DNA of 64,000 nt from positions 34,837-98,836 of the IMG/VR virus record IMGVR_UViG_3300014204_000008; one strand, 5' to 3'. Made by a program: the position numbers and the translations under genes. This DNA is from a virus. Its lineage: Duplodnaviria; Heunggongvirae; Uroviricota; Caudoviricetes. Positions 37,133 through 52,729 of the stretch are shown here, in pieces (position 1 is the stretch's first letter; each line of letters begins with the position of its first letter). Under the pieces are notes generated by a model. The model had not been told where the DNA came from. It did no database searches and was given only the letters and a program-made list of their open reading frames with translations.

Positions 37133-37139
37133 GTACCAC

Positions 37140-39744: not shown

Positions 39745-40056
39745 ATGAAAATCGCCGAAGGACTTTTGCTGCGTAAGCAGCTCGAAGCAAAAGTGAAGCA
39801 GTTGGAACCTTTAAAGCTTAATGGCGAAAACGGTGTTTACGACACAAAGGTCGTACGTCGTAAGGTTTCAGAAGATGTTGATGAGGTCACTCTCCAAAGT
39901 CCTCGTGTCGACATCAAGACTCTTACGAAGGAATACGATGTGTATGCCTCCCGTCTCCGTCGTCTTGATTCAGCAATTCAGAAAGCAAACTGGCAGTTTG
40001 ATCTTGATTTCAGTGAAGAGGTTGAAGTGGTAACATCTGAGGTTGCAACTTCGTAA
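39745..40056 (+). CDS. hypothetical protein
   Basis: ATG 39745 (track start is TTG 39703). Confidence 0.45.
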   Translation: MKIAEGLLLRKQLEAKVKQLEPLKLNGENGVYDTKVVRRKVSEDVDEVTLQSPRVDIKTLTKEYDVYASRLRRLDSAIQKANWQFDLDFSEEVEVVTSEVATS

Positions 40057-40333
40057 ATTCCAGTTTATGGATACGGAAAAGAAGGTGATAAGGCGTGGTG
40101 ATATTTTCAGAGATTCGAAAAAAGAGGAATGGTTTAGAGTTATTGGTATTCTTAGAGAAGGCGGAGAAACAATATTTTTCACAACCATTCCTAGGAAGAC
40201 AGGAGATCTGAAAGAGGAAGATGATTTTCATTCAATCGTTACACTCACCGGTCTCTTGAAAGAAAGATATATTCCTATTGGAAATTTTTATGAAAAAGAG
40301 AATGAAAGAAGAGTTCTCTTTTCTAGAGATTAG
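40043..40333 (+). CDS. hypothetical protein (96 aa)
   Basis: ORF. Confidence 0.4.
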   Translation: MQLRKFQFMDTEKKVIRRGDIFRDSKKEEWFRVIGILREGGETIFFTTIPRKTGDLKEEDDFHSIVTLTGLLKERYIPIGNFYEKENERRVLFSRD

Positions 40334-40351
40334 GGATATAGCTATCTGCTC

Positions 40352-40428
40352 TCTGACGTAGTTCAGCTGGATAGAACAGAGGACTTCTAAGCCTTTAGAC
40401 ATCGGTTCGAACCCGATCGTCAGAACCA
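40352..40428 (+). tRNA. tRNA-Arg (anticodon UCU), CCA encoded
   Basis: 7-bp acceptor TCTGACG/CGTCAGA, D-arm GTTC-AGCTGGATA-GAAC, loop CTTCTAA, T-arm ATCGG-TTCGAAC-CCGAT, ACCA end. Confidence 0.6.
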
Positions 40429-40502
40429 TGGAGTTTATGTCAGTTATTCTCCTATAAAAATATTGATACGGGTTTGGCAGGAACGTATAAAAACTGTCCC
40501 AT

Positions 40503-40576
40503 CGCGGAATGGAGAAATGGCATCTCGTCAGTTTCATAAGCTGAAGTTTCCAGTTCAAATCTGGATTCCGCATCCA
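40503..40576 (+). tRNA. tRNA-Met (anticodon CAU), C1:A72 mismatch, CCA encoded
   Basis: D-arm GAGA-AATGGCA-TCTC, anticodon arm TCAGT-TTCATAA-GCTGA, T-arm TCCAG-TTCAAAT-CTGGA. Could instead be an Ile(LAU) or initiator-type tRNA. Confidence 0.6.
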
Positions 40577-40577
40577 G

Positions 40578-40665
40578 GCAAGCGTATACTGCTAAGGAGG
40601 CAGCGCAGACTGTAAATCTGTTGTCTTAAATGACTCGCTCGGATCGTTCCCGAGAGCTTGCACCA
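40578..40665 (+). tRNA. tRNA-Tyr (anticodon GUA), class II with long variable arm, CCA encoded
   Basis: Anticodon arm GCAGA-CTGTAAA-TCTGT, variable hairpin, T-arm CTCGG-ATCGTTC-CCGAG. Four nt between acceptor and D-stem is unusual. Confidence 0.45.
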
Positions 40666-40666
40666 A

Positions 40667-41024
40667 GGGTCTGATCATATTTCGATAGGTTGCTCATTGA
40701 AAAATTGCAGGACAAGCTGTAGTAACTTGTTAAAAGGCTACGAAATTGTAATTGCCAAAGCTATTGAAAGTCTGAAGTCGTTCTACACTTCGGTGTTTCG
40801 AACCCCTTCATTCGTTGCGTCATTCGTCTAACGAACTGATGCCCGATCATCATGATTTGTTTGTAGGTCATGAATGATCGTCACTTATACAAACTGGTGG
40901 AGAACACAAATCTCACGCTCTGAATGTAGGTACATAGCAGCTCTTGCTTTAAGGAGCTAATCCTGTGAATGAAATTTTTCATATATCAGCCTATACACGG
41001 GAGAATCACCCGTCAGATCCACCA
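40667..41024 (+). ncRNA. ssrA: tmRNA (ssrA), about 358 nt
   Basis: 5' GGGTCTGATCATATTTCGATAGG aligns with the E. coli tmRNA 5' end GGGGCUGAUUCUGGAUUCGACGGG. 3' ACGGGAGAATCACCCGTCAGATCCACCA aligns with GCGGGUUCAACUCCCGCCAGCUCCACCA. Acceptor GGGTCTG/CAGATCC carries the G3:U70 alanine identity pair. A-rich tract, TAA, TT, then GCC is a resume-codon context like E. coli UAG-UC-GCA. Confidence 0.65.
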
Positions 41025-41027
41025 GAG

Positions 41028-41102
41028 AGGAATGTAGCTCAACGGTAGAGCAATTCGCTTATATCGAATAGGTCGTGGGATCGTCACCCACCATTCCTAC
41101 CA
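41028..41102 (+). tRNA. tRNA-Ile (anticodon UAU), CCA encoded
   Basis: Acceptor AGGAATG/CATTCCT, D-arm GCTC-AACGGTA-GAGC, anticodon arm ATTCG-CTTATAT-CGAAT, T-arm GTGGG-ATCGTCA-CCCAC. Confidence 0.55.
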
Positions 41103-41103
41103 T

Positions 41104-41191
41104 CGGCCTGTGATGAAATGGTATACATGGGAGGCTTAGACCCTCTTGCCCTTTATTGGGTTTGCAAGTTCGAATCTTGCCAGACCGACCA
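41104..41191 (+). tRNA. tRNA-Leu (anticodon UAG), class II, CCA encoded
   Basis: Acceptor CGGCCTG/CAGACCG (one mismatch), anticodon arm GGAGG-CTTAGAC-CCTCT, long variable arm, T-arm GCAAG-TTCGAAT-CTTGC. Confidence 0.55.
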
Positions 41192-41321: not shown

Positions 41322-42128
41322 ATGAACAAGATTAATCTTATCATTTCTGGTGTCATTGCATTTGCACTTTTAAGCATCATAATGATCCTAAATCCATTTG
41401 CACAGGTTTCAGCTGGTGAGCGTGGAGTTGTTCTAACATGGGGTGCTGCCGGAGATCAGGTTCTTACAGAAGGCCTCCACATGGTCACACCAATCGCTCA
41501 ACATGTTCAGATTGTAGATATTCGAGTTCAGAAGGAACAGGTAGATGTTGCAGCAGCTTCAAAAGATCTCCAGACAGTGAATTCAACAGTTGCTATTAAC
41601 TTTCATCCAGATCCAAGTAAGGTAAACATTCTTTGGAAGACCATTGGTAGTGATTATTCATCTCGAATCATCTCTCCAGTCGTTCAGGAAGGCGTTAAGG
41701 CTGTCACAGCCCGTTATACGGCAGAAGAACTCATTACGAAGCGAGAAGAGGTTCGTGACGGTATCAAGAATATTCTCACTGAACGTTTGAGCTTGAGTAA
41801 CATCCTTATTGATGATTTCTCTATCATGAACTTCTCCTTCTCTAAGGGATTCAATGATGCGATTGAAGCGAAACAGACAGCTGTACAAGATGCATTAACG
41901 GCAGAAAATAAGTTGCGACAAATCAAGGTTGAAGCCGAACAGCGTGTTGCCACAGCTCAGGCAGAAGCTCAAGCTATCAAACTTCAGAGTGATGCCGCGA
42001 ACAATGACAAGTATATCAATTTGAAAGCCCTTGAAGTTCAACTTGAAGCAGTCCATAAATGGAATGGTGTCTTGCCAACACAGATGACACCGAATGGAGC
42101 AGTTCCTTTCCTGAATCTTACGAAATAG
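41322..42128 (+). CDS. SPFH/Band-7 (stomatin/prohibitin-like) membrane protein
   Basis: N-terminal TM, ERGVVLTWG ... GLHMVTP ... IVDIRVQ, then a long coiled-coil tail with AQAEAQAIKLQ, typical of SPFH. Confidence 0.7.
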   Translation: MNKINLIISGVIAFALLSIIMILNPFAQVSAGERGVVLTWGAAGDQVLTEGLHMVTPIAQHVQIVDIRVQKEQVDVAAASKDLQTVNSTVAINFHPDPSKVNILWKTIGSDYSSRIISPVVQEGVKAVTARYTAEELITKREEVRDGIKNILTERLSLSNILIDDFSIMNFSFSKGFNDAIEAKQTAVQDALTAENKLRQIKVEAEQRVATAQAEAQAIKLQSDAANNDKYINLKALEVQLEAVHKWNGVLPTQMTPNGAVPFLNLTK

Positions 42129-42221
42129 GTACTTCATCGTATATGGTAAAAGCAAAACTTTCTCGTCTAAAGACAACCACTGCGTAATCACCGTCACCTA
42201 AGACGGAATTGATTATGCGCC

Positions 42222-42440
42222 ATGAACACTTCAAAAGCTCGAATCAATCCATTCTATCCTAAACAGCACTTTACCCGTAAGGATCGTCGAAAGAATTACG
42301 ATAATGCTGACTATCTGTGGATGATAGGGACGGGTTGGCGTAAAGACTTAAAATGCGCAACTGCCCGTAAGTCTAGGAGAAGAAAGATCGCAGATGAGAC
42401 ACCTTATAAAAAGCTTGTAGATCCATGGGCCTTTGATTGA
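42222..42440 (+). CDS. small basic protein (72 aa)
   Basis: ORF. Confidence 0.35.
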   Translation: MNTSKARINPFYPKQHFTRKDRRKNYDNADYLWMIGTGWRKDLKCATARKSRRRKIADETPYKKLVDPWAFD

Positions 42441-42958
42441 ACCTATTGGAGATGACGTTAGATCACTATGGTGGTCTTCCGTCTATGATAGATGATCTGA
42501 AATGACTTCTTTTCATCTATCATAGACGGAAACACGATGTTTCCGTCATTCGTCTTCGTGGACAATAAGCGTATAAAGATTGAACATGTTGAAGGGAACG
42601 ACCTCGGTCTTCCTGTGTAGACACTATCGAGCTTTGCTTATTACGAATCTTAGACACAAAAGTTCCATAGACTGATAAATCTCCCTGGAGATTTCGCAAG
42701 ATAGGTCGAATGGTCAGGAAAATCAAAGATTAAGTAGCGGATAGAGAAACGGGCATCATTTCCCCTTAAAAGGAATGCCTACTCTATTGGTAAAATCACT
42801 GGTAACTCTTTTACGTGTATGGATGTGATATCGTGTACACGTAAGTGATCTTAATCTTTCTTTCCTTGAGGTGATGAGAACATAACCGTTCCCCTTTTGG
42901 TGGAGCCTCTGTTAATCAATTCATCTCTTCAAGGAAGGAAGCACTGGAGGACTAATTC

Positions 42959-43069
42959 ATGAAAAATATTTCTATGACTTCCAAAAAGAAGCCAGCAGCC
43001 AAGACTTCCAAGAAGCCTACAAAGGTTGCAAAGAAGGTCGTGAAGACGACAAAGAAGGCATCAAAGTAG
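42959..43069 (+). CDS. Lys-rich 36-aa peptide with a strong RBS (GGAGGACTAATTCATG)
   Basis: MKNISMTSKKKPAAKTSKKPTKVAKKVVKTTKKASK. Embedded in the large noncoding region. Confidence 0.3.
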   Translation: MKNISMTSKKKPAAKTSKKPTKVAKKVVKTTKKASK

Positions 43070-43750
43070 GTTCCAGAGGATGATCTTTTGATCATGCAGG
43101 GCCTTTCGGTCCCTATACGGGACTTCCCTGAGAGTGTATGAAATTAGGGATATGATACACAGGTGAGTTCCTTTAAAGGGAAGAGATTAGTTCATGGGGT
43201 ACGTCCCTGCGGTTTCAAATTGGAACGTATTTTCCAGTGGAGTTTACAAATCAGGTGTAAGTCGATTTTCCTAGGAGCGGATCGACATCTTTAAAACCGA
43301 GTCCCCCATGAACTAATCTCTCTCGCCTCTAAGGAGCAATGAAAAGTCTAATGCTCGGAGCGTCGAAAGACGTGGATTGCCTTGCCACGGGGTGTCCGAG
43401 AATGATGTCAAATCATGGGGTGAGCGACCATTACTCTTTAGAGGTGGGATAGGATCTCCAGTCGTTGTAACACGCAGGGTGAGATCGCTATTCCAGCGAG
43501 ATAAAAAGTCGTCCTTATCAAGATGCTAGTGACCCTTAAATAAGAATCTGCTGACCAACGCTTACACTAGCCGTTGTAATGGTCGGCTCTCGCCTTGGAA
43601 CGATAATGTTGTTCAATGATATTGTGAAAGTAACTGCTTTCCCTGCCTATCAAAAGAACAGCCCCCCATTTTCGTTCCAAGGCGGATGGAGAATGAAGCC
43701 GTTCTTCAACCGTTGGCGATAGCGTTTATAAAAACGTGAGCTGTAGAGGA

Positions 43751-43890
43751 TTGAGTGGCGAAATTGGCAGACGCTGAAAGTCGAGCAATCGGCAAAGCTA
43801 GACGACTGATACGATCTCATTGCGTATCTAACTAGAAATAGTTGTCGGAGGACTAGCGTAACTGTGAGTTCAAATCTCACCTCAATCTTC
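43751..43890 (+). tRNA. tRNA-Leu-like gene with an insertion of about 55 nt (possible intron or tRNA-like structure)
   Basis: 5' GATTGAG-TG-GCGAAATTGGCAGACGC closely matches the tRNA-Leu acceptor and D-arm. 3' GTGAG-TTCAAAT-CTCAC plus CTCAATC completes a perfect 7-bp acceptor. The anticodon region between them does not fold canonically. Confidence 0.35.
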
Positions 43891-44139
43891 TTTCGCCTCA
43901 TGCTTCGGAGGATGTGTAATCAGCACAAGCTGGTGACCTTTCCCCCCTTCCGAAGCAGTAGGCGGGATCGGGAGCCTGATACCCGTGAGCGAGTACATAC
44001 TAGTCAGAGATACTACGGGGAGGTGCTTAACTTCCCGTTATACCAAGTCTACCCTCGCACGGGTTACGAAAGGACAAGGGGTATCTCTCTCGTTCGAAGA
44101 AGTAATGATAACAATTCAAACCGTTGCCAGGGCTGAATG

Positions 44140-44205
44140 TTGCAACTCAAGCATAGGAGCCGAAAGGCTTGACTGATGAGCGAAAGCGAAACGAGAAATC
44201 GTATC
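44140..44205 (+). ncRNA. hammerhead-ribozyme-like core
   Basis: CTGATGA-GC-GAAA-GC-GAAAC, then ACGA-GAAA-TCGT-A (stem III-like hairpin with an NUH site). Preceded by hairpin TCAAGC ... GCTTGA. Stem arrangement is not fully consistent with a canonical hammerhead. Confidence 0.3.
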
Positions 44206-44415
44206 TAAGAGTCCATATTCCTATGTTCAGTGATGGACGGTGTAGCCCAAAAAAAGAATTGTTTGATAGTTATTATTACTTTTTCGAACGGGATACCTCA
44301 TACGTTCCCTAAACATGTTGAGTGTTAGAGAAGTTGCAACTTCTCTCTCGCTTTCTGCTTTAATATGAATATACCTGGCGTTATATGCATAATGTGGCAG
44401 AAAGCGGGTAAACCT

Positions 44416-44790
44416 ATGAAATCTAGATCCACTCGACCAAAGAGAAGTAAAACCTTCCCTCAACTCCTTTCGAAGAAGAAAGTTTCTAAACGCCTTAATA
44501 GGCATGTTGCATCAAAACTCCGTCGTAGGATCTACGTTGAACAGGCTGGAAAATGTTTCTACTGCGGTTGCGAATGTATCCCTACAGATAACAAAAAGAT
44601 AAGATTTGAAGACCAACCAGATAATCTTTTTACCATTGACCACATCTTTCCAATATCAGCCGGTGGAAGCAATCGCTATGCGAACTTATTAGGTAGCTGT
44701 AGGAAGTGCAATGAAGAAAAAGGAAAAACGACAGATTTGGCGACATTTCTTCTCAAGAAGAAAGAAGAAAGGTCGACCCTTGACAAGTGA
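44416..44790 (+). CDS. HNH endonuclease
   Basis: CFYCGCEC ... DHIFPISAGGSN ... CRKCNEEKG is the canonical HNH motif. Start ATG 44416 or 44365. Confidence 0.6.
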   Translation: MKSRSTRPKRSKTFPQLLSKKKVSKRLNRHVASKLRRRIYVEQAGKCFYCGCECIPTDNKKIRFEDQPDNLFTIDHIFPISAGGSNRYANLLGSCRKCNEEKGKTTDLATFLLKKKEERSTLDK

Positions 44791-44808
44791 CGAAAAATAT
44801 GCTATGAT
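44780..44808 (+). promoter_or_regulatory. sigma70-type promoter, family copy (inside the 3' end of the HNH gene)
   Basis: cccTTGACAagtgacgaaaaatatgcTATGAT. Confidence 0.5.
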
Positions 44809-44867
44809 CTCTTTGCTCTCTGCACTGGGCAGTCCACCTGTCCGCTCATACACGAGTAGCGGAGAAG

Positions 44868-44905
44868 AGAACTTATCCCTTGGCTTAATTGCTGAGGGAT
44901 TTGTT
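44868..44905 (+). terminator. intrinsic terminator (ATCCCT ... AGGGAT then TTGTTTTTT)
   Basis: Hairpin plus T-run about 60 nt downstream of the promoter, convergent with the end of the giant - strand gene. Confidence 0.45.
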
Positions 44906-47900
44906 TTTTATGAACGAGTTGATGGCTCCGAAATACTTCTCAACGATTGGTTCGATCTGAGTGATAATACCCATGTAGCGATAAACATCCTCTTCGCGCT
45001 TTGCCCCTTCATAGCTTGAATAGTTCCTATTCATATCAGGTCTCGTGACAAGGTGGTATCCAATACGAAGGAGCTGATCTTCTGAGAGACCACTTCCATT
45101 TATCATATAGTCTTCAAAGACTTTATCCATGATCTTTTCAGATTCTCCAGCAAGTTTACCGGTTTCCATATTGTAGTCTCTACTGAACTCTTTCTCATCA
45201 AAAACTTCACCCTTCTCTTGGGCGGCTCTTCGCGCCTTATCCATGACAACGGAACGCGCTTTACGTCGCGCTTGGCGAGAAGCGTTGATGTTCGCGGCCA
45301 TCTTTACAATGTGAGATTCAGGCGTGCCAGAAGTAATCTTAAAGAAGTCCTCACCTTTTTCTTCAATAAGTGATTTCTTTACTTCCTGTGCCGCAAAAAG
45401 GTCTGCGGCGTTCTGGGCCTTGATATCTGTACGCTCAATTGGTTTTAAACCTCTGAACTGATCCAGTATCTCAAAGAATGGCGTCAACTTCCCATCGGCT
45501 GCATTGATTCGATCATTGAGGTTAAAGATTTTCTCTAAAGAATACACGAGATCAGATGTCGATTCCAGGGTATTCTTTTCTTCGTCGACGAGTTGAAATG
45601 CCGTCTGGAAGTCTCGAAGCTCTTTAGAAATCTTCAGGATCTCCTTCTTCGTCGTAACTCCAAAAAGATGTGAGATGAGAACTTGGTTCGCATCCTGAAG
45701 ACCTGTTTCCTTCAATCGACGTTCAAAGTCTCCATAGGTAACACCATCAACGGTCTCCTGTGCCAATTGACCAACGAAACGCGGATCGTTCTTCATATTC
45801 GAAGCAACAGGAAGATTCGAATCTCTTACTTGAGAGAGAATGCGACCTATTCCTTGTGCCTGACCAACGCCTTTCCCAGAATTCACTGCGGCATTTACCG
45901 TATAGCGAACACCTTGATCAGTCATTTCGATTGGCTTCTCTCCAGCTCCTTCTCCGAATTTCGTAAGAGGATCAAGAACAATATCTTTATCACTCTTACG
46001 CTGTGTTTCAATATAGTCAGCGTATTCCTCAGGAATGCCTCTCCCCTGGAGTTCATGCCCCTTCCCATAGATAGGGAAGACTTCATAAGCATCTCCATCA
46101 AAGTCGAACTCTTTTCGGACATATCCATCATATGCAGAAGTGATAATCGTGCCTTTTTTCACCTTCATTCCAAAGTCCTCAGCAATAACAACGTCTGCTT
46201 TTGCAAGAGCCGTAAGTCTCGTGATAGGTTGGCGAATGGAAACAACACTCGTTGGTTTTCCGATGCGCTCCCAGTCTGCACGAGAAAGCATGATTTCATT
46301 TGGCTTCAGATAGAGGTTCTTTGCCTGTTCCTTAAGGAACGTTTTTCCATAATCACTTAGACGGTTTGCCTTATCAGCGTCTTCAAGAACATCTACAATT
46401 CTATAGATATCTGCTTGATCGTCTAAGAGGTATCGAGCGTCTTTCTCTGAAAGAACGCTGTCACCAAATAACTCATTGAAATGAGTTCGTAACGTTCCTA
46501 CTTTGTCCTTTACTTCTTTTGACTTTGCGAATGTCACGAGTTCTGCGACATGAGCGAAGTGACCAAGGTCTTCTTTCTTTGGATGATTTGCAACTTCAGA
46601 AATCTTCAAAGCCCCTTTTGAAGCAAGATCTGGTTGAACGTAATTGTAGGTAGATTCTCCTAAGAATCTTCCTGACATGATCTTTGATTGGAAAGCTTTT
46701 GCGATATTCTCTTCAAGTTTCTTTTCAATAAACATGTCTGGCGTATCCGAGCGACTGAGGAGCTGATTCATCTTCTCCCAATCTGCACTATCAATTTCTC
46801 CAACAAGGTCTATACCAAATTTCTCTTTGAATTTCGTATTAGCCTCTCGAATAACCTCACGTATCGGTGTCCCGTTTTTCTTTGCTTCTCGAATCGAGGA
46901 GAAGAGATCTGTGTAATCCTTGATTGGTTCTGAGAAGCGTTCCGTGAAAGCTTTATTTACAACAGGATCATTTGAAGCTCGTGAGTAGATAGAAGCAGCA
47001 GCCTTTGGCTTTGTAACCGCTTTCTTTGGGACAACCTTTGCGTGCCAAGATGAAGAAGGCGTCGTGCCTCCAACAATCCCATCTCCCATATCTTCAAGAA
47101 GTCCTAACCCAATTTTAACATTCTCTGAAGAGCCAACGATCGAGAACTTATCAAGAGGTTTCCCAATACGTCGTTCGAAAGAACGTTGCATGTGCTCAGG
47201 CATTGGATAGAATTGACCTTTGATGATTGCTGTTCCACTTCCAGTGTTCCAGACAAGGTTAGATTTGATATATCCAAGAGATGGGTCAGAATTCATTGCC
47301 TTCAAGAGAAGTTTAAATCCTTCTTCGGGAATGAAGTTCGCTCCATCCATAATATCTTTTCCATTAATCCCATCAAGAACCTTTGTACGCTTCACACTTT
47401 CCGTTGGGAGTTGGAGCATGTTCTCATCGACAAGCCCAAGTTCTCCCATTTTCTTTCCTGGAAAAACGAAGAGTGGCATCTGAACTTCATTCCCCTTTTC
47501 ATCTCGAAGATCGAGTTTTGGTTCAGAAAAGTTGAGAATGCTTGTACGCTTGTTGAGCTTACCGAAATTCGAAGCTGTTTTCTGATCAAGACCTACGACA
47601 TTCTGATAGAAAGAAACTCTAAATCGCTCACTTGGCGTCATCTTTTCAGCACCTTCGCCCGTATACATGTTTGCAAGCTTCTCGTTGTATTTTACCAAAA
47701 TCGTATTCTTAATGTTGTTTCCAGCAATACCAATAACCACGTAACTGTCCTTTTCAGCACGTCCACTATTAACGATATCAAGAACTGCTTGATAGGCATC
47801 ATCTGATTTTGTTTCAACCAAGCCATCTGTCTCATAACGCTTCAATTCAATCTTTCCAATATCTGGATTTCTTGATGTGAAGTCTTCAATGAGTCTATCT

Positions 47901-50900
47901 GTAGGACTCTTTGATTTCATGGTTAACGTTTCAACATCTTCTTGGATTTTACCGTTCTTTACTTGGAAGGCTTCACGTGGTTTCGCATCAATAATTCTTC
48001 GAAGAAGAACTTTAAAATCATTCTTCGTAGCCTCATTTGAAAAGAGTGATGGGAGTTCAACATCGTACTTTTCAGAAAAGTCTTTTGTACTCGTTTCCAT
48101 TGATTCGATAAGCTCGTCCATTGCTTTATGAGAATCTCCGCCATTCTTCTCTCGAAGCTGCTGTAATCTCTTTTGGATATTCTCTCTGGAAAAACTATTC
48201 TTTCTTTCTTCAAGAGCAGATATCGTTTTCCCGAAATGGGACAACTGTTCACGCTGGTCCTCTGTAAGAGTTCTATTCCCGTTCTCAGAAAAGAACTTGT
48301 TACGCAAGTCATTACGCTTTGCAATGATCTCTTTCTGCTTAGAAGAGAAAACAATGGTAGAGAGTTCTAATTTTCCATTCTTAAGTGTACGAGCATCGCT
48401 TGGAGATGTAAGTGATACGTCTTGCGTATCAAATGGTCTATTCGTTGTAAGCTCATCAGAAAGAGCAATCCTTTCCTCTACGGTAGGATTTCGTACAAGT
48501 TCAACGCCAAGAGATTCTGCTGCTTTCTTTTCAACAGGGGTCTGAACAAAAGATTCTTCATTTCGTGTGACAATCTCTGCTTCACCCTTTTCAGGAACGT
48601 ATTTAACATTCTTTCCTTCCTTGATTGCGGAAAGCTGATCTCGTACCTCCAAAGGTAAAGATTCAGGGATGTTTTCCTTCGTTTTCGGTTCTATCTGCTG
48701 TCTAACTGGTTCTTGTACCTTAGGTGGTTCCTCTATAGGAACTATGCGTGGCTCCGCGACAGTTTGCTTAACTTGAGGCTCTGATACCATCTGTGAGGCT
48801 CTAGGAGCCTCTATGACAGGTTCTTGTGGCAAAATTGGCGTCTGTACCTCTTGTTTAATTAGAAGGCTCTCAGTGGCCATTTTAGGCGTTTCAGGTGGTA
48901 TTGTGGTATCTGATACTATTTCAGGAACAGGAAGGCTCTCAGGGGCCATTTTGGCCTCTACAGGAGCTTCTACTGGGACATCTGAAGGCTTTTGAATAGC
49001 TGTCTCTTTAACAGTTCTCTTAGACCCAAGAAGTGGAAGATCGAGAAAATGACCAAGAAGAGGGCTTTGAACGAATTCAGAGGTACGAAGAATACCGCTT
49101 ACAATTCTTGCCTGATCAGAAATTGCTTGAATGTTTGCCGTTCCAGAAGAGATGCCATCTTCGAGTACCGAAAGAAGATCACGGAGAGAGACTGAATCTC
49201 CCTTAGCGATGATCTCTCCAGCTCTTTCTGGTGACAGAATTTCTCCGTAACGTTTTGAGATCTTTGAGACAAGATCATCAGCACTCTTACTTCCAGCAGC
49301 TTCAGAGAAGAATGAGAAAACTTCTTCACCGTCTTTTATCCTTTGGATGAATGCTTCAGAATATTCTTCTGGGTTATTAAAAACCTTATCGAGCATCTCA
49401 TATGAAGGCTCGATGTCCATCTTCTGTTTTAATGTATCTACGAAACGTTTTGAATCCTCAGGTCCAGTAAGAGCACGAGCACGTGCCATAAGTTCCATCG
49501 GTGAATGAACCTCTGAACCAGACTTTGTTCCTTCGAATAGTTGCTGAGTCTTCGAAATGCCATCTTCGGTAATAGCAATTTTAAACCAACGTTTTCCTTC
49601 CTCTGCACCCATTTCTCGAATATCTCCAACCATGGCACCAACGTTTTGGTCATCCATCCATCTTGAAAGAGTATCCTTGTCTAAGTTGAGCTGTTCTCCT
49701 TGATAGTTCTTCCAGCGATCATCTTTTGTTCCTAAGGAACCAACAAGTTCTTCCGTTTTCTCATTCATTCGATCGAGGACTTTCTTTGATGGCATCATCC
49801 CAACCTTCACCCAAGAAACAGTTCCATCGACTTCCTTATGTGGAACATAAACAGAAATGACTGAATCTGGGTTAGATTCAATATCTTTTGTTGCACGTTC
49901 TTCAGGTGTGTACTGGCTTCGACGTAGAGTTTCTTTTGTTCCCTGACCAGGAGATCTTATTAAGAGTGCTCTTGTTCCACGATTTCCGTTTACCTTTGCG
50001 TCTTGAAGAAGTTGCCACTGGCGTTCAGTCATGCTCCATTCTCCACCAGTCGTTTGGAATACACCTGTAGGACTGTCGACTGGAACGATGGACGGATCTG
50101 CTGAACGTGTTGCCGTTGAATCAACATTTTCAAAGAAGATATTCTTTGCTTCATTTGCCGTTAAACGAAGTGACGGATCGGCAGTAGCCTGGCCATTATT
50201 TAACATTCTTTGAAGAAGAACGCTCCATGACTGGAGATCCTGTAAAAGCATCCTATCAGATTCAACAGGATTCTTCGTTGTTGATTCCAAGAATCGAAGT
50301 GATGTATCAAGTTGTCTTGTCACTAAAGACAAATCCTCTTCACTCCAAATAGGGTTTCCATTTTTATCTACATTCTTTTCTGCCGTTTCTTTCCATTTAT
50401 TCGTCCCTTCAATCCGCAATTTAACCAAAGCTTCTGAAGAAAGATCCTTCCCAGCGTAATATTCAGTTGGTTTAAAGTTTTCGAATTTACCAGGATTTGG
50501 GAACATCTCTGGATTAACAGCATGAAGATTTACGGCAGCAGCGAACTTCATTCGGTCATCAAGTCTAACAAGAAGTTGATTCTGGAGAGATGCTTGTTTC
50601 TCTGCGTAAACCGTCTTCATTGCCTGTTGAACGAATGGTGATTTTTCAATAATATCACGTTCTGAAGCTGAAAACGTTGGCTTTGTTCCAGCATCAGCCA
50701 CTTTAGCTTGCTTAATATATTTTCCTACAACATCCACACCTTTTTCACGGGTTCTAATTTCTTTCGTATGTCCTAGACCATGAAGAGCTGTAAGCATCAA
50801 AGCATTCTGAAGAATGCCCATGACATCTCCTTCAGAAGATTCATCCTTCATATTGAATCCCTGCTCCATCGAAGCCAAAACAGCACCTTTGCCAAAGACC

Positions 50901-52729
50901 TTCATGTAACCAGGAATGTTATGTGCATCCATTCCAAAAGCAGCACCATTAACAGAGTCCCACATAACTCTATTCATCGTTGCTCCAAGAGAGCGGTCAT
51001 CTTGTTGATGGAGAAGCCCGTGAACAACCATGAGTCCAATATTTTCCATTTGAGCATTCCACTTCAAAGCTCGCATCGTGTCTCCAAACGCTTCACCAAT
51101 CATTGGAACTTTAGCCGTCTTCACATCAGTCCAAGCCCATGGAGCTGCTTCAAAAATACGAGCCGTTGGTCCTGGTTTCTCGACAGCAGCTACAGCCGCC
51201 TTTGCTGCTTTTAAGGTATTACGAGCTGCAACATTTCCTATAGGGGATGAACCAAATTTCTCAAATGCCTTTTGCTTTAATCCTGCAGCAACGGCACTGA
51301 TGCCAATTGGTCCTTTTGCAGCAGCTTCTCCGATACTCTTCGTAATTCTTCCTATTTTTGTAGGTTCAATAAATTCAGCTGCTTTGCCAAGTTTTGTTGC
51401 ATAACCTACTTTCGTAGCAACCTTTGCTAGTCCACCAGTGACGATAAACGAAGCAAGAAAACCGAGCGTTGATCCTACGGCGTTTCCAACTTGTCCTGCG
51501 ATTTTATTCTGTTCAGCGTATTGGCTTTTCCAATATGGAGCATCGCTTGCTTTTGCAGCTTCTTCCCAATTTGTAGAACCTAATTTTCCATATCCAAAAG
51601 TAAGTTCTGTCCCAAAGCCACGAGTAGCTTCAGATAGAAAAGGTGTGACAACGGGCTTCTGACCGAAAATAGGTAAGGATTCTACCTTCTTAGACATCCA
51701 GTCGCCCACAATCTTTCCCGCAGCACCCATTTCTTTCGGGACTTGTTTCAATGTTTCGAAAAATGATGGCTGCTTATATGTTTTCCAAGCTTTCCAAGCA
51801 TTTGCAGCCTGTTCAATGGAAATAACTCCAGTATCATCTGGAGTAGATAAGTCGGTATCTGAATAGTTTTTCCAATCCGTGAGTGCAAGCTGGGCTTCAC
51901 CTAATTGAATCGGATCTACACCATACTTTTTAAGTTCTTCTGGATTGTCTCTAGACGCTCTCCAAAGTGTATATGGAACAGATTGAATCTTCGTTTTCTT
52001 CTCATGCTCCTGGTTCGTGAGGAGCTGCATGTTCGAGATATCGTCTGCTCCACCCATTGAAAGCGGAAGTGCATGGTCAACTTGATAAAGTGCTGGATCT
52101 CTTCCTTGTAAAACCTTTGCTTTTATACTCGCAGCCTGAGAAGCGTTTCGAATAGTATGGATCAAGCCACCTGGTTGAGATGGATCTGTAAGGTAATAGG
52201 CTCCACTAGCCTGGGAAATTGGATTTCCCTGATTATCAACATTCGAAGACGGGACTTCTCTTACTTGAGCTTGATCTGTTGGATTCACCCAACCTAATCC
52301 TGGATTCGCAGGAGCAATATCCATTGGACCTTCTTGTCTTCCGGCTTGAAACTGAGAGAGTGGTTGTTGTGATCCTGGGAAAGATGAAGGGGCGATGTTT
52401 TGACCAGTCTCGAATGCCACTGGAGTAAGTTGATCAAAACGAGTTGAAGGATCTTCCGCTGGCGGCGTAAAACTCGATTTCATTCCAGCATTAAAAGATG
52501 GAGTAGGGACTGTACTCATCTTTGTTCTTTGTTGTGCAACAAGAACTTTCAATGCTGCTAACAGTTGTTTTGAATCAGGAATACCGTAAGACTGGTCCTT
52601 TGCCTTTTGGGAAGGGACAACATTAGCCAATCTCGCCTTCTCTTTTGCCGTTAATTTCTGGCGAGAAGAGTACGATGTATTTTGAGTTATATTAGCCATG
52701 TTAGAAGGAATACATGAAAGAATTTCCAA
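44885..52729 (-). CDS. giant virion-associated protein (2614 aa), putative tape-measure or ejected polyvalent protein, with N-terminal HNH-like motif
   Basis: Single uninterrupted ORF. YQVDHALPLSMGGADDISNMQLLTNQEH (His-Me finger-like) near residue 215. Gly/Ala-rich amphipathic segments (GLAKVATKVGYATKLGKAAE ...). PQ/PE-rich low-complexity linker. Large helical C-terminal region. Last gene of the tail operon. Confidence 0.75.
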   Translation of the reverse strand: MEILSCIPSNMANITQNTSYSSRQKLTAKEKARLANVVPSQKAKDQSYGIPDSKQLLAALKVLVAQQRTKMSTVPTPSFNAGMKSSFTPPAEDPSTRFDQLTPVAFETGQNIAPSSFPGSQQPLSQFQAGRQEGPMDIAPANPGLGWVNPTDQAQVREVPSSNVDNQGNPISQASGAYYLTDPSQPGGLIHTIRNASQAASIKAKVLQGRDPALYQVDHALPLSMGGADDISNMQLLTNQEHEKKTKIQSVPYTLWRASRDNPEELKKYGVDPIQLGEAQLALTDWKNYSDTDLSTPDDTGVISIEQAANAWKAWKTYKQPSFFETLKQVPKEMGAAGKIVGDWMSKKVESLPIFGQKPVVTPFLSEATRGFGTELTFGYGKLGSTNWEEAAKASDAPYWKSQYAEQNKIAGQVGNAVGSTLGFLASFIVTGGLAKVATKVGYATKLGKAAEFIEPTKIGRITKSIGEAAAKGPIGISAVAAGLKQKAFEKFGSSPIGNVAARNTLKAAKAAVAAVEKPGPTARIFEAAPWAWTDVKTAKVPMIGEAFGDTMRALKWNAQMENIGLMVVHGLLHQQDDRSLGATMNRVMWDSVNGAAFGMDAHNIPGYMKVFGKGAVLASMEQGFNMKDESSEGDVMGILQNALMLTALHGLGHTKEIRTREKGVDVVGKYIKQAKVADAGTKPTFSASERDIIEKSPFVQQAMKTVYAEKQASLQNQLLVRLDDRMKFAAAVNLHAVNPEMFPNPGKFENFKPTEYYAGKDLSSEALVKLRIEGTNKWKETAEKNVDKNGNPIWSEEDLSLVTRQLDTSLRFLESTTKNPVESDRMLLQDLQSWSVLLQRMLNNGQATADPSLRLTANEAKNIFFENVDSTATRSADPSIVPVDSPTGVFQTTGGEWSMTERQWQLLQDAKVNGNRGTRALLIRSPGQGTKETLRRSQYTPEERATKDIESNPDSVISVYVPHKEVDGTVSWVKVGMMPSKKVLDRMNEKTEELVGSLGTKDDRWKNYQGEQLNLDKDTLSRWMDDQNVGAMVGDIREMGAEEGKRWFKIAITEDGISKTQQLFEGTKSGSEVHSPMELMARARALTGPEDSKRFVDTLKQKMDIEPSYEMLDKVFNNPEEYSEAFIQRIKDGEEVFSFFSEAAGSKSADDLVSKISKRYGEILSPERAGEIIAKGDSVSLRDLLSVLEDGISSGTANIQAISDQARIVSGILRTSEFVQSPLLGHFLDLPLLGSKRTVKETAIQKPSDVPVEAPVEAKMAPESLPVPEIVSDTTIPPETPKMATESLLIKQEVQTPILPQEPVIEAPRASQMVSEPQVKQTVAEPRIVPIEEPPKVQEPVRQQIEPKTKENIPESLPLEVRDQLSAIKEGKNVKYVPEKGEAEIVTRNEESFVQTPVEKKAAESLGVELVRNPTVEERIALSDELTTNRPFDTQDVSLTSPSDARTLKNGKLELSTIVFSSKQKEIIAKRNDLRNKFFSENGNRTLTEDQREQLSHFGKTISALEERKNSFSRENIQKRLQQLREKNGGDSHKAMDELIESMETSTKDFSEKYDVELPSLFSNEATKNDFKVLLRRIIDAKPREAFQVKNGKIQEDVETLTMKSKSPTDRLIEDFTSRNPDIGKIELKRYETDGLVETKSDDAYQAVLDIVNSGRAEKDSYVVIGIAGNNIKNTILVKYNEKLANMYTGEGAEKMTPSERFRVSFYQNVVGLDQKTASNFGKLNKRTSILNFSEPKLDLRDEKGNEVQMPLFVFPGKKMGELGLVDENMLQLPTESVKRTKVLDGINGKDIMDGANFIPEEGFKLLLKAMNSDPSLGYIKSNLVWNTGSGTAIIKGQFYPMPEHMQRSFERRIGKPLDKFSIVGSSENVKIGLGLLEDMGDGIVGGTTPSSSWHAKVVPKKAVTKPKAAASIYSRASNDPVVNKAFTERFSEPIKDYTDLFSSIREAKKNGTPIREVIREANTKFKEKFGIDLVGEIDSADWEKMNQLLSRSDTPDMFIEKKLEENIAKAFQSKIMSGRFLGESTYNYVQPDLASKGALKISEVANHPKKEDLGHFAHVAELVTFAKSKEVKDKVGTLRTHFNELFGDSVLSEKDARYLLDDQADIYRIVDVLEDADKANRLSDYGKTFLKEQAKNLYLKPNEIMLSRADWERIGKPTSVVSIRQPITRLTALAKADVVIAEDFGMKVKKGTIITSAYDGYVRKEFDFDGDAYEVFPIYGKGHELQGRGIPEEYADYIETQRKSDKDIVLDPLTKFGEGAGEKPIEMTDQGVRYTVNAAVNSGKGVGQAQGIGRILSQVRDSNLPVASNMKNDPRFVGQLAQETVDGVTYGDFERRLKETGLQDANQVLISHLFGVTTKKEILKISKELRDFQTAFQLVDEEKNTLESTSDLVYSLEKIFNLNDRINAADGKLTPFFEILDQFRGLKPIERTDIKAQNAADLFAAQEVKKSLIEEKGEDFFKITSGTPESHIVKMAANINASRQARRKARSVVMDKARRAAQEKGEVFDEKEFSRDYNMETGKLAGESEKIMDKVFEDYMINGSGLSEDQLLRIGYHLVTRPDMNRNYSSYEGAKREEDVYRYMGIITQIEPIVEKYFGAINSFIKNKSLSN

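What the first reader, a model, noticed from the sequence alone, without database searches (positions are those of the whole stretch)
42441..44300. About 1.8 kb ORF-free, highly structured region next to the tRNA/tmRNA cluster: candidate large ornate noncoding RNA
This phage is otherwise gene-dense. From the end of the 72-aa ORF at 42440 to the HNH gene there is no ORF over 60 aa on the + strand, apart from a 36-aa Lys-rich peptide at 42959-43069. The sequence is rich in GNRA tetraloop hairpins (GCCGAAAGGC, GCGAAAGC, ACGAGAAATCGT, TTACGAAAGGA). It has a 17-bp perfect hairpin at 42480-42530 and a 9-bp hairpin directly after it. It also has a 17-bp long-range helix (GAGATTAGTTCATGGGG at 43183-43199 pairing with CCCCATGAACTAATCTC at 43304-43320) enclosing a domain of about 100 nt. 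Large structured RNAs of unknown function (GOLLD, ROOL and similar) are characteristically phage-encoded and sit next to tRNA genes, which is exactly this context. The region may hold one large RNA or several smaller ones. I cannot match it to a known family from sequence memory.
Basis: partly seen in the sequence, partly recalled or inferred. Interest (0 to 1): 0.8.

Follow-up and report, generated by a model that had tools for sequence, protein, structure and literature searches.

The report
Hammerhead ribozyme in structured RNA array
The 1.9 kb gene-poor stretch of this phage is not one giant RNA but a row of separately folded RNA modules, of which one is a self-cleaving hammerhead ribozyme from an uncatalogued phage family, one is a crippled tRNA-Leu look-alike, and the rest are unidentified.

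Summary
Window 42441-44364 has no credible gene except a 36-aa ORF. No single stop-codon reassignment opens a frame. It folds far better than shuffles (z -4.5 to -7.2) and 74 kcal/mol better on the + strand.

No Rfam 15 family matches, including GOLLD, ROOL, HEARO, OLE and group I/II introns. The region is a tandem set of stem-closed modules, not one RNA.

- **Hammerhead.** Module 44089-44292 holds a type I hammerhead (core 44120-44248, predicted cleavage 44203|44204) with a 2-bp stem II and two pseudoknots. I found 7 window-type and 11 sister-type homologues in viral and metagenome contigs. In the window-type set, 95.5% of pairs hold, against 30-44% for slid controls, and 19 of 38 pairs show compensatory changes. 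A model built without the window hits it at 122.5 bits, E 2.7e-29.
- **tRNA-like element.** 43749-43888 is derived from tRNA-Leu but has no anticodon arm and no CCA.
- **Module M2.** 43313-43455 shares four collinear blocks with a syntenic relative, L057.
- **Shared stem base.** Five modules share a stem-base motif (AUC-UCUCU-CG...CG-GGAU).
- **Orphans.** M1, M3, M4 and the pseudoknotted M5 have no homologues.

Most likely this is a processed polycistronic ncRNA array. The phage also encodes RtcB.

The parts
42477..42547 (+). Two overlapping, mutually exclusive hairpins just after the 72-aa ORF stop. The first is a perfect 19-bp hairpin (42477-42495 with 42513-42531). The second is a 9-10 bp hairpin (42525-42547) followed by ATTCGTCTTC. 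They look like a terminator or attenuator, or a processing site.
   Evidence: z -7.3 (+) and -6.3 (-)
42858..42940 (+). Leader hairpin immediately upstream of the ribosome-binding site of the small ORF. The arms are 20 nt and 85% complementary.
   Evidence: I9; z -4.8 on + against -1.0 on -, so it is strand-specific
42959..43069 (+). 36-aa Lys-rich ORF (MKNISMTSKKKPAAKTSKKPTKVAKKVVKTTKKASK). GGAGGA lies at 42946-42951, 7 nt before the ATG. It is probably a real small gene.
   Evidence: no Pfam family
43182..43321 (+). Module M1. An 18-21 bp closing helix encloses a junction of three short hairpins. No homologue was found.
   Evidence: z -5.8 (+) and -6.2 (-)
43313..43455 (+). Module M2. Its 13-bp base helix is CGCCUCUAAGGAG with CUCUUUAGAGGUG. 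Four collinear blocks are shared with the syntenic relative L057 (1326-1484): CTCTCGCCTCTA, ATGAAAGTCT, GAATGATGT and GGKGTGAGC. The conservation is at the nucleotide level, not the protein level, because frames and stops differ.
   Evidence: z -3.6
43583..43695 (+). Module M3. A long branched hairpin with 18-nt arms that are 94% complementary.
   Evidence: (I8); z -8.8 (+) and -7.6 (-)
43749..43888 (+). tRNA-Leu-derived tRNA-like element.
- Acceptor stem of 7 bp: 43749-43755 with 43881-43887.
- D arm 43758-43774, almost identical to the tRNA-Leu D arms of L057.
- T arm 43864-43880.
- In place of the anticodon and variable arms there are 89 nt of small hairpins.
- No CCA is encoded.
   Evidence: no Rfam tRNA hit at E<=10
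43886..43975 (+). Module M4. An imperfect long hairpin (CGCCUCAUGCUUCGGA with UCCGAAGCAGUAGGCG) directly after the tRNA-like element.
   Evidence: (I14); z -4.9 (+) and -2.8 (-)
43980..44088 (+). Module M5, a predicted pseudoknot. Helix 43982-43993 with 44054-44063 crosses helix 44006-44013 with 44081-44088. An inner hairpin sits at about 44016-44039. No homologue was found.
   Evidence: (I23); the crossing is read from the coordinates, so this is inference
44089..44292 (+). Hammerhead module. A 22-24 bp closing helix P0 (44089-44112 with 44269-44292, with G-U pairs on the + strand) surrounds the conserved ribozyme core.
   Evidence: z -5.9 to -7.2. Other members also have long flanking inverted repeats, of different sequence.
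44120..44248 (+). Conserved type I hammerhead ribozyme core.
- Px: 44120-22 with 44239-41.
- Pa: 44123-27 with 44142-46.
- Pseudoknot Pb: 44130-34 with 44244-48.
- Stem I distal: 44152-58 with 44219-25.
- Optional hairpin: 44159-68.
- Stem I proximal: 44169-72 with 44204-07.
- CUGAUGA: 44173-79.
- Stem II: 44180-87.
- GAA: 44188-90.
- Stem III: 44191-44202.
- H17: A44203.
- Pseudoknot Pc: 44211-15 with 44234-38.
44203..44204 (+). Predicted self-cleavage site, GUA|U. Cleavage would leave a 2',3'-cyclic phosphate on A44203 and a 5'-OH on U44204.
   Evidence: Position follows from the hammerhead consensus. Residue 17 is A, C or U, never G, in the seven complete window-type sequences. Cleavage itself was not tested.
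44338..44410 (+). Hairpin carrying the same stem-base motif (UCUCUCU-CGCUUUCUGC with GCAGAAAGCG-GGU). It encloses the annotated HNH start codon at 44365.
   Evidence: (I3); z -4.4

Best explanation
The stretch is a rightward-transcribed array of independently folding, stem-closed RNA modules. It lies between the SPFH/72-aa genes and the HNH gene, where a related phage (L057) carries about 25 tRNA genes.

**Shown.**
- The last module is a self-cleaving type I hammerhead ribozyme of a phage and metagenome family that Rfam 15 does not detect. It has a 2-bp stem II (GC-GAAA-GC) and two covariation-supported pseudoknots that tie stem I to flanking sequence.
- Another module is a decayed or repurposed tRNA-Leu frame.

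**Inferred.**
- The array is made as part of a long + strand transcript. No phage consensus promoter lies inside it; the nearest upstream one is at 37139.
- It is cut into pieces at the hammerhead (44203|44204), which separates the ncRNA array from the HNH mRNA and gives that mRNA a 5'-OH end.
- It is probably also cut at the tRNA-like element by RNase P and RNase Z.
- The shared stem-base motif (AUC-UCUCU-CG...CG-GGAU) at five modules may be a further common recognition or processing signal.
- The phage's own RtcB ligase could reseal the 2',3'-cyclic phosphate and 5'-OH ends. The long P0 helix would hold the two halves together after cleavage.

What the orphan modules M1-M5 do is not known.
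For: **Hammerhead.**
- The exact core 20-mer retrieved homologues from viral and metagenome contigs.
- The canonical core is present: CUGAUGA, GAA, A15.1-U16.1 invariant in 18/18 sequences, and residue 17 never G in the seven complete window-type sequences.
- On 7 window-type sequences, 95.5% of cells pair, against 30-44% for slid controls. 19 of 38 pairs show double changes and 0 of 500 shuffles reach the observed values. Both pseudoknots pair in 100% of cells, with 2 and 4 covarying pairs.
- On 18 sequences of both subfamilies, 92.1% of cells pair and 22 of 27 pairs are compensatory.
- A model built without the window hits 44120-44248 at 122.5 bits, E 2.7e-29. It is the only hit in the 64 kb window.

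**Modularity.**
- Homology to other loci ends at the module edges.

**Strand.**
- The + strand minimum free energy is 74 kcal/mol lower than the - strand.
- Several modules are significant on + only.
- The hammerhead, the tRNA-like element, the small ORF and all flanking genes are on +.

**tRNA-like element.**
- Its D arm matches the tRNA-Leu genes of L057 at 85-90%.

**Synteny.**
- L057 runs SPFH, then 700 nt free of ORFs, then tRNAs, tmRNA and an HNH gene, then a giant gene on the opposite strand.

**Motif.**
- One search shows the shared stem-base sequences.
- CTCTCG occurs 4 times in 1.03 kb, against 17 + strand copies in 64 kb.

**Context.**
- RtcB and a HAD_SAK_2 RNA-repair domain are encoded in the same phage.
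- A sister-type hammerhead sits about 40 nt upstream of an RtcB gene in L048.
- RtcB ligates hammerhead-cleaved ends in vitro (PMC7229834).
- Hammerheads with 2-bp stem II and pseudoknots that flank phage genes were described by Perreault et al. 2011 (PMC3088659).
Against: - There is no transcript or cleavage data.
- Stem II never varies, so covariation says nothing about it.
- The window's stem I proximal helix has a U-U mismatch at 1.3/2.3; this position is paired in the close relative L046.
- No Rfam hammerhead model hits the window at E<=10.
- A 22-24 bp P0 helix would keep the cleavage products together, so 'processing' may not release them.
- M1, M3 and the 42477 hairpin fold equally well on both strands. 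They could therefore act at the DNA level.
- The stem-base motif and the role of the tRNA-like element as a processing signal rest on one genome.
- M2 is conserved in only one other sequence.
- No homologue at all was found for M1, M3, M4 or M5.
Confidence: 0.6

Rival explanations
1. The whole 1.8 kb is one large ornate noncoding RNA of the GOLLD or ROOL kind, and the modules are its domains.
For: - The region sits next to tRNA and tmRNA genes in a phage.
- Structure is continuous and strong across the whole stretch.
- The stem-base motif is shared by five modules.
- Alternative pairings link neighbouring modules: ATCTCT can close M1 or M5 upstream, or M2 or P0 downstream.
Against: - No Rfam large-RNA family matches, even at E<=10.
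- Each module is closed by its own long helix, and no long-range helices join them in the minimum-free-energy fold.
- The hammerhead module occurs alone elsewhere, with unrelated flanks.
- A translated small ORF with a strong Shine-Dalgarno sequence and terminator-like hairpins interrupt the region.
- A self-cleaving site lies inside it.
Confidence: 0.08
2. The region is a decayed tRNA-gene array: pseudogene debris and selfish hairpin insertions with no function beyond the hammerhead.
For: - The syntenic relative L057 has about 25 tRNAs in the equivalent interval.
- The window keeps only a crippled tRNA-Leu frame there.
- M1, M3, M4 and M5 have no detectable homologues.
Against: - Fold z-scores of -5 to -9 and strand-specific G-U pairing are not expected of decaying sequence.
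- M2 blocks are conserved with L057, although the flanking coding genes are only about 66% identical.
- The shared stem-base motif implies a common constraint or recent duplication.
- Phage genomes are under strong size selection.
Confidence: 0.17
3. The inverted repeats act in DNA, as a replication origin, packaging site or recombination hotspot, rather than in RNA.
For: - The 19-bp perfect palindrome, M1 and M3 fold equally well on both strands.
- The region abuts the switch from + to - strand genes and the cumulative GC-skew maximum near 44300-44450.
- The phage encodes SbcCD, RuvC and RecA (Pfam tags).
Against: - The + strand is favoured by 74 kcal/mol overall.
- Most modules depend on G-U pairs.
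- The hammerhead and the tRNA-like element are RNA devices on the + strand.
- There are no iterons or AT-rich unwinding element; GC is in fact highest here, at 0.46-0.50.
Confidence: 0.1
4. A protein-coding gene is hidden by recoding, frameshifts or introns, for example a group I intron with the HNH as its homing endonuclease.
For: - An HNH gene lies directly downstream.
- Patescibacteria and their tRNA genes carry divergent group I introns that RF00028 misses (PMC13011429).
- A sequence resembling the group I 'R' element (TCAGAGATACTAC, 44004-44016) is present; the resemblance comes from my own recall.
Against: - There are 27-42 stops per frame, and no stop reassignment opens a frame.
- No Pfam hits were found for the longest ORFs scanned.
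- No group I or II hit appears at E<=10.
- The M5 pseudoknot lacks a P4-P6 domain, and its strand order does not fit P3-P7-P3'-P8-P7'.
- No split exon flanks the region. The tRNA-like halves are only 143 nt apart and the insert is too small for group I.
- No single excision yields a sound tRNA.
Confidence: 0.03

Closest known systems
Type I hammerhead ribozymes of bacteria and phages (Perreault et al. 2011, PMC3088659; Rfam clan CL00010)
   Same: - The 11-nt catalytic core is the same.
- A15.1-U16.1 is invariant.
- The NUH cleavage triplet is GUA, GUC or GUU.
- Stems II and III are closed by loops and stem I is open.
- Stem II is only 2 bp.
- Pseudoknots replace the loop-loop contact.
- The location is intergenic, in phage DNA upstream of small genes.
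   Different: - No Rfam 15 hammerhead model detects the window copy at E<=10 or the other loci at gathering score. The best result is a partial HH9 hit at 18.5 bits on a sister-type copy.
- Stem I is interrupted by an optional GNRA hairpin.
- The ribozyme is wrapped in about 70 further conserved nucleotides that form Px, Pa and two pseudoknots (Pb, Pc).
- The whole unit is usually enclosed by a long variable helix P0.
- Whether this exact architecture was among the 2011 hits could not be checked.
Large ornate phage-associated RNAs (GOLLD RF01998, ROOL RF03087; accessions from my own recall)
   Same: Phage-encoded, next to tRNA genes, with many GNRA loops and multi-stem junctions, and of unknown function.
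   Different: No sequence or structure match was found. The region is modular, with independently occurring parts. It contains a small ORF and a self-cleavage site.
HDV-like theta ribozymes next to phage tRNAs (PMC10879173)
   Same: They are small self-cleaving or pseudoknotted RNAs placed beside tRNA genes in phage tRNA clusters, proposed to process tRNA transcripts. M5 has the same strand order of crossing helices as the HDV fold: P1, P2, P3 hairpin, P1', P2'.
   Different: - M5's 'P3' is 7 bp rather than 3.
- There is no G-U at the base of 'P1' and no P1.1.
- M5 is not adjacent to the tRNA-like 3' end.
- There is no Rfam HDV-type hit.
- The ribozyme actually identified here is a hammerhead.
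tRNA-Leu genes and tRNA-like processing signals
   Same: The acceptor stem, the 3-bp D stem with an 11-nt loop containing GG, and the T arm with a TTCAAAT loop all match class II tRNA-Leu of the related phage. Such a frame is what RNase P, RNase Z and the CCA-adding enzyme recognise (established knowledge).
   Different: - There is no anticodon stem-loop.
- An 89-nt insert of small hairpins takes its place.
- No CCA is encoded, although all four real tRNAs of this phage encode it.
- No Rfam tRNA hit appears.
- The 125-nt tRNA-Leu-like genes in IMG/VR (L063-L070) keep an anticodon stem and score as tRNA; this one does not.

Membership tests
Hammerhead ribozyme (type I) | Conserved core: C3 U4 G5 A6 N7 G8 A9, G12 A13 A14, the A15.1-U16.1 pair, and residue 17 not G | tested here: met
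   - Window 44173-44179 is CUGAUGA.
- 44188-44190 is GAA.
- A44191 pairs with U44202.
- Residue 17 is A44203.
- A15.1-U16.1 is invariant in 18/18 sequences.
- Residue 17 is A, A, A, C, C, U, C in the seven complete window-type sequences.
Hammerhead ribozyme (type I) | Three helices around the core, supported by covariation, with stems II and III capped and stem I open | tested here: met
   - Stem I distal: 5 of 7 pairs show double changes.
- The N1.1-N2.1 pair covaries (GC 8, AU 6, CG 4).
- Stem III: 2 of 4 pairs covary.
- Stem II is invariant, so it is uninformative.

Sources.
Hammerhead ribozyme (type I) | Tertiary contact that aligns stems I and II (loop-loop or pseudoknot) | tested here: inconclusive
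   Two pseudoknots (Pb, Pc) pair in 100% of cells, with 2 and 4 covarying pairs. They tie stem I's internal loop and the Pa loop to 3' sequence. Whether they position the GAAA loop of stem II is not shown.
Hammerhead ribozyme (type I) | Match to a curated covariance model (Rfam RF00163, RF00008, RF02276, RF02275, RF02277; the accessions other than RF02275 are from my own recall) | tested here: not met
   No hammerhead hit on the window at E<=10. None at gathering score on 20 homologous loci. One partial HH9 hit, 18.5 bits against a gathering score of 52, on L038. I read this as a gap in model coverage: the stem I insert and flanks are large.
Hammerhead ribozyme (type I) | Site-specific self-cleavage giving 2',3'-cyclic phosphate and 5'-OH ends | not testable with these tools
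   Needs in vitro transcription or end-specific RNA-seq.
The window-type hammerhead family defined here (model R1) | Full-length match to a model built from other members only | tested here: met
   122.5 bits, E 2.7e-29, model positions 1-126 of 126, at window 44120-44248 on the + strand. It is the only hit in 64 kb.
GOLLD / ROOL / HEARO / OLE / raiA large RNAs | Match to the Rfam covariance model | tested here: not met
   No hit at gathering score over the window, or at E<=10 over 42100-44500.
Group I intron | Rfam RF00028 match; P3-P7 pseudoknot with a P4-P6 domain; flanking exons that join into a gene | tested here: not met
   No hit at E<=10. The M5 crossing helices are in the wrong order and no P4-P6 is present (read from the sequence). 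No exon pair exists. Caveat: divergent Patescibacteria introns escape RF00028.
tRNA (for 43749-43888) | Cloverleaf with a 5-bp anticodon stem and 7-nt loop (U33, purine 37); 3' CCA or a processable end | tested here: not met
   - The acceptor, D and T arms are present.
- No anticodon stem exists. ARAGORN's intron model needs a stem with a mismatch and a G-U pair.
- The best of 2695 excision variants still have mismatched stems and C33.
- No Rfam tRNA hit appears.
- No CCA is encoded.

The most novel reading that the evidence does not exclude
One or more of the orphan modules next to the hammerhead is a new class of structured RNA, possibly a new self-cleaving ribozyme. The candidates are the pseudoknotted M5, the M2 conserved with L057, M1, M3 and M4. 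All share a common stem-base motif. Together with the hammerhead, the tRNA-like element and the phage RtcB, they would form an RNA cut-and-reseal system that the phage uses against, or in place of, host tRNA and RNA damage. The sister-type hammerhead immediately upstream of an RtcB gene (L048) would then be a ribozyme-ligase feedback pair.
Probability: 0.2. Interest if true: 0.85.

Novelty: new variant of a known kind. Interest (0 to 1): 0.55.

Why it matters
- **A gap in the catalogues.** A recognisable, probably active ribozyme family of about 125-130 nt, doubly pseudoknotted, is present in phage and metagenome DNA but invisible to Rfam 15. This gives a concrete seed (window, L024, L034, L036, L043, L037, L056, plus 11 sister-type copies) for a new model.
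- **A link to RNA repair.** The ribozyme sits among genes of one functional theme: tRNAs, tmRNA, RtcB, an RNA-repair HAD domain and SPFH. One copy lies directly upstream of RtcB. That makes the long-open question of what bacterial and phage hammerheads are for testable as a cleavage-religation circuit.
- **Candidates for new RNA classes.** Self-cleaving ribozymes cluster with one another in bacteria (PMC6765202). The five strongly folded orphan modules beside this one are therefore reasonable candidates.
- **If the orphans are debris.** The result is still a clean re-annotation of an 'ornate RNA' candidate.

Tried and rejected
1. **Known RNA families.** Rfam at gathering score and at E<=10 gave nothing in the region.
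2. **Hidden coding.** Stop reassignment and open-frame counts exclude it. Pfam found nothing for four of the small ORFs scanned.
3. **DNA homology.**
   - GenBank phages: no match.
   - 19 IMG/VR loci carrying SPFH relatives: no match. The ORF-free gap in L004 is unrelated AT-rich sequence.
4. **Protein-anchored searches for related phages.**
   - The giant-protein C-terminus and SbcC found no relatives in IMG/VR.
   - The giant protein returned nothing from the 5.8-billion-protein search, not even itself; this is probably a limit of the candidate filter.
   - The 72-aa ORF matched only its own cluster (one hit, 99% identical).
   - SPFH homologues led to L057, which is syntenic and useful. 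L058-L062 share no homologous region, and P0004's contig has no DNA available.
5. **Repeats.** The modules are not MITE-like or otherwise dispersed repeats; none recurs elsewhere in the 64 kb.
6. **tRNA with an intron.**
   - An exhaustive excision scan found no sound product.
   - The exact T-arm plus acceptor sequence is absent from GTDB genomes.
7. **Group I intron and HDV-like readings of M5.** Both were rejected on helix order and sizes.
8. **Second hammerhead or circular RNA.** There is only one CUGANGA...GAAA core in the region and only one hit of model R1.
9. **Pattern scans for M2 homologues.** Two IMG/VR scans found nothing.
10. **The 20-mer in bacterial genomes.** Only chance coding matches were found.
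Full report
**1. Context**

The window is identical to a Logan contig from run SRR6484787. It is a phage.
- Genes run rightward from about 25.5 kb to 44.8 kb. They then meet a 2614-aa ORF on the opposite strand.
- The phage encodes an RtcB RNA ligase (phrog_1075, E 5e-119) and a HAD_SAK_2 RNA-repair domain.
- It also encodes RecA, SbcC and SbcD; the contig annotation adds a weak RuvC tag (Pfam tags).
- It carries four tRNAs and a tmRNA at 40352-41191.
- An SPFH gene lies at 41322-42128. Its named homologues are from Parcubacteria and Falkowbacteria. From that I infer, but do not show, a Patescibacteria host.
- A phage promoter consensus (CTTGACAAGT, about 17 nt, TATGCTAT) occurs six times in the window. 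None lies inside the finding; the nearest are at 37139 and 44779.

**2. The observation**

- The first hairpin is 19 bp. Its 3' arm is shared with the second hairpin, so the two exclude each other.
- Two GTG-start ORFs of 90 and 63 aa exist on the + strand. The 90-aa ORF has no Pfam match; the 63-aa ORF was not scanned. Both overlap the ribozyme.

All six frames carry 27-42 stops, and no single stop reassignment opens a frame.

Folding is far beyond chance.
- The four segments give z -6.3, -6.1, -4.5 and -7.2.
- Single modules reach z -8.8, against +1.8 to -2.7 for coding controls.
- The + strand is favoured by 74 kcal/mol.

**3. What it is not**

Rfam 15 finds nothing in the region at gathering score or at E<=10. 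That rules out GOLLD, ROOL, HEARO, OLE, group I and II introns, and all catalogued self-cleaving classes as detectable members. The GenBank phage collection has no similar DNA.

**4. The hammerhead**

Inside the last module I noticed CUGAUGA-GCGAAAGC-GAAA-hairpin-GUA.

*Homologues.*
- The exact 20-mer retrieved 3 IMG/VR and 25 metagenome loci. In GTDB genomes it gave only chance coding matches.
- The window-type family comprises L024, L034, L036 (=L047), L043, L037 (=L045) and L046. L056 was added by a looser pattern.
- The sister-type family comprises L022, L023, L026 (=L030, =L039), L027, L028, L035, L038, L041, L042, L048 and L049.

*Architecture.* The window-type members share a core of about 125 nt.
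- Px is an invariant 3-bp helix, ACC with GGU.
- Pa is a hairpin. Its loop pairs with the 3' end to form pseudoknot Pb.
- Stem I is split into a distal and a proximal part by an optional GNRA hairpin.
- The catalytic core follows, then a 2-bp stem II with a GAAA loop.
- Stem III ends in GUH.
- A second pseudoknot, Pc, joins stem I's 3' internal loop to downstream sequence.

*Covariation.*
- On the 7-sequence MAFFT alignment, 95.5% of cells pair, against 30-44% when partners are slid.
- 19 of 38 pairs carry double changes, and none of 500 shuffles reaches the observed values.
- Both pseudoknots pair in 100% of cells.

*Membership.*
- A covariance model built from the six non-window sequences hits window 44120-44248 at 122.5 bits, E 2.7e-29. 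It is the only hit in 64 kb.
- The same model hits sister-type copies at 26-46 bits, several of them over the full model, so the two types share one architecture.
- On 18 model-aligned sequences, 92.1% of cells pair and 22 of 27 pairs are compensatory. A15.1-U16.1 and G10.1-C11.1 are invariant, and N1.1-N2.1 covaries. That alignment is fitted to the model, which flatters it.
- Residue 17 is A, C or U, never G, in the seven complete window-type sequences.

*Cleavage and setting.*
- The predicted cleavage is between A44203 and U44204.
- Most members, including the window, are enclosed by a long helix of unrelated sequence. This is P0, 22-24 bp in the window.
- They lie 50-160 nt upstream of assorted small ORFs.
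- L046 shares 130 nt at 90% identity and nothing else, so the unit is autonomous.

*Why Rfam misses it.* Rfam's hammerhead models do not hit the window copy at E<=10 or the other loci at gathering score. The single exception is a partial 18.5-bit HH9 hit on a sister-type copy. Perreault et al. 2011 had already reported phage-associated hammerheads with 2-bp stem II and pseudoknots. The class is therefore known, and this elaborated form is a variant.

**5. The tRNA-like element**

43749-43888 has three tRNA features.
- A perfect 7-bp acceptor stem.
- A D arm 85-90% identical to the tRNA-Leu genes of L057.
- A canonical T arm.

The 89 nt between the D arm and the T stem form small hairpins, including GUCGA-GCAA-UCGGC. 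They do not form an anticodon arm.
- ARAGORN's Ser(CGA)-plus-intron call rests on a poor stem.
- None of 2695 excision variants gives a sound tRNA.
- Rfam's tRNA model is silent.
- No CCA is encoded, unlike the four real tRNAs here.

I read it as a tRNA-Leu derivative that can no longer decode. It may still be seen by RNase P, RNase Z and the CCA-adding enzyme; that last point is inference.

**6. Synteny**

L057 carries an SPFH gene 64% identical at the protein level. Its layout runs as follows.
- The SPFH gene.
- About 700 nt free of ORFs and tRNAs.
- tRNAs and a tmRNA homologue.
- More tRNAs, with an HNH gene among them, and a further small ORF and tRNA.
- A giant gene on the opposite strand.

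The window's structured stretch therefore occupies the place of a tRNA array.

M2 (43313-43455) shares four collinear blocks with L057 1326-1484. Among about 1 Mb of fetched loci, only these two sequences (and the window's own duplicate L020) have that combination. Reading frames and stops differ, so the conservation is not protein-level. A plain local alignment score alone is not significant. With two sequences, structure cannot be tested.

**7. Shared stem base**

M2, M3, M4, the hammerhead's P0 and the hairpin over the HNH start all begin (A)AUC-UCUCU-CG(C/U)(C/U) and end (G/A)(G/A)CG-GGAU.
- CTCTCG occurs 4 times in 1.03 kb here, against 17 + strand copies in 64 kb.
- The same ATCTCT also forms the 3' end of the closing helices of M1 and M5, so neighbouring modules compete for it.

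The cause is unexplained. Duplication, or a common protein or RNase site, are the options.

**8. Mechanism**

*Shown.* There is a conserved hammerhead motif and a tRNA-derived frame, both on the + strand, among strongly folded modules.

*Inferred.*
- Co-transcription with the upstream operon.
- Self-cleavage at 44203|44204, which separates the array from the HNH mRNA.
- Possible RNase P and RNase Z cuts at the tRNA-like element.
- Possible resealing by the phage RtcB.

On the last point, RtcB joins hammerhead-cleaved ends efficiently in vitro (PMC7229834). A sister-type copy sits about 40 nt upstream of an RtcB gene in L048, and another sits upstream of an ORF that by eye resembles an SPFH/Band 7 domain in L042.

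Self-cleaving ribozymes in bacteria tend to lie near one another (PMC6765202). That keeps open the possibility that an orphan module is catalytic.

**9. Limits**

- M1, M3, M4 and M5 have no homologues, so their structures are predictions only.
- No expression data exist.

**10. Verdict**

This is a modular RNA array whose one identifiable functional part is a new variant of a known ribozyme class. Interest is moderate at 0.55. It would be higher if the orphan modules prove functional.

Noticed in passing
window 44779-44912 (+): The best promoter match in the area (TTGACA, 17 nt, TGnTATGAT, 11 of 12 positions) is also a copy of the phage's own promoter consensus. It is followed by about 100 nt that fold at z -5.9 on the + strand only, and by a terminator hairpin (44875-44900) with a T-run. 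This is likely a small independent ncRNA between the HNH gene and the giant gene.
   Followed up: partly
window 40100-40349 (+): This stretch, just upstream of tRNA-Arg, folds at z -3.3 to -4.6 on the + strand only (-37.8 against -25.9 kcal/mol). It overlaps a 96-aa ORF (40043-40333) with no family. It may be a further structured RNA rather than a gene.
   Followed up: no
window 13366-14592 (-), 16315-16830 (-): The phage encodes an RtcB RNA ligase and a HAD_SAK_2 ('Swiss-army-knife RNA repair') domain protein, alongside tRNAs and a tmRNA. This is an RNA-repair theme. A relative's contig (carrying P0004) places RtcB directly after SPFH.
   Followed up: partly
L048 627-741 and 773-1978; L042 1255-1398; L035 1535-1660 and 1677-1765; L023 about 640-770: The sister-type hammerhead (same 2-bp stem II, with conserved CCGUGG and GGAAUAAC blocks) appears in several settings.
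- About 40 nt upstream of an RtcB gene that is 58% identical to the window's (L048).
- Upstream of an ORF that by eye resembles an SPFH/Band 7 domain; no family scan was run (L042).
- Directly downstream of a tRNA (L035) and of a tRNA-like T arm (L023).

It is not detected by Rfam.
   Followed up: partly
L063-L070 (e.g. L070 7858-7981, L066 246-370, L065 8371-8494): IMG/VR phage contigs carry tRNA-Leu-like genes of about 125-130 nt. Rfam scores four of the six loci scanned as tRNA (37-40 bits). In L070 the anticodon 'loop' is 43 nt instead of 7, and the central regions of the others are similarly enlarged. The inserts seem too short for group I introns, and most copies encode no CCA. L066 also has a bona fide group I intron at 7071-7287.
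   Followed up: partly
L057 1910-2286: This stretch is 66% identical to the window's tmRNA gene (40663-41053). It was not reported as tmRNA by Rfam at E<=1 or by ARAGORN. The window's own tmRNA was found by Rfam but not by ARAGORN. This appears to be a divergent phage tmRNA lineage.
   Followed up: no
window 15414, 19570, 22372 (-); 31853, 37139, 44779 (+): A phage-specific promoter-like consensus, CTTGACAAGT followed about 17 nt later by TATGCTAT-like sequence, sits upstream of gene blocks on both strands.
   Followed up: partly
window 44885-52729 (-): The 2614-aa ORF returned no hit at all, not even itself, from the 5.8-billion-protein search. It also has no IMG/VR relative. It carries an HNH-like motif near its N-terminus (DHALPLSMGGADDISNMQLLTNQEHEKKT). 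Its nature was not determined.
   Followed up: no
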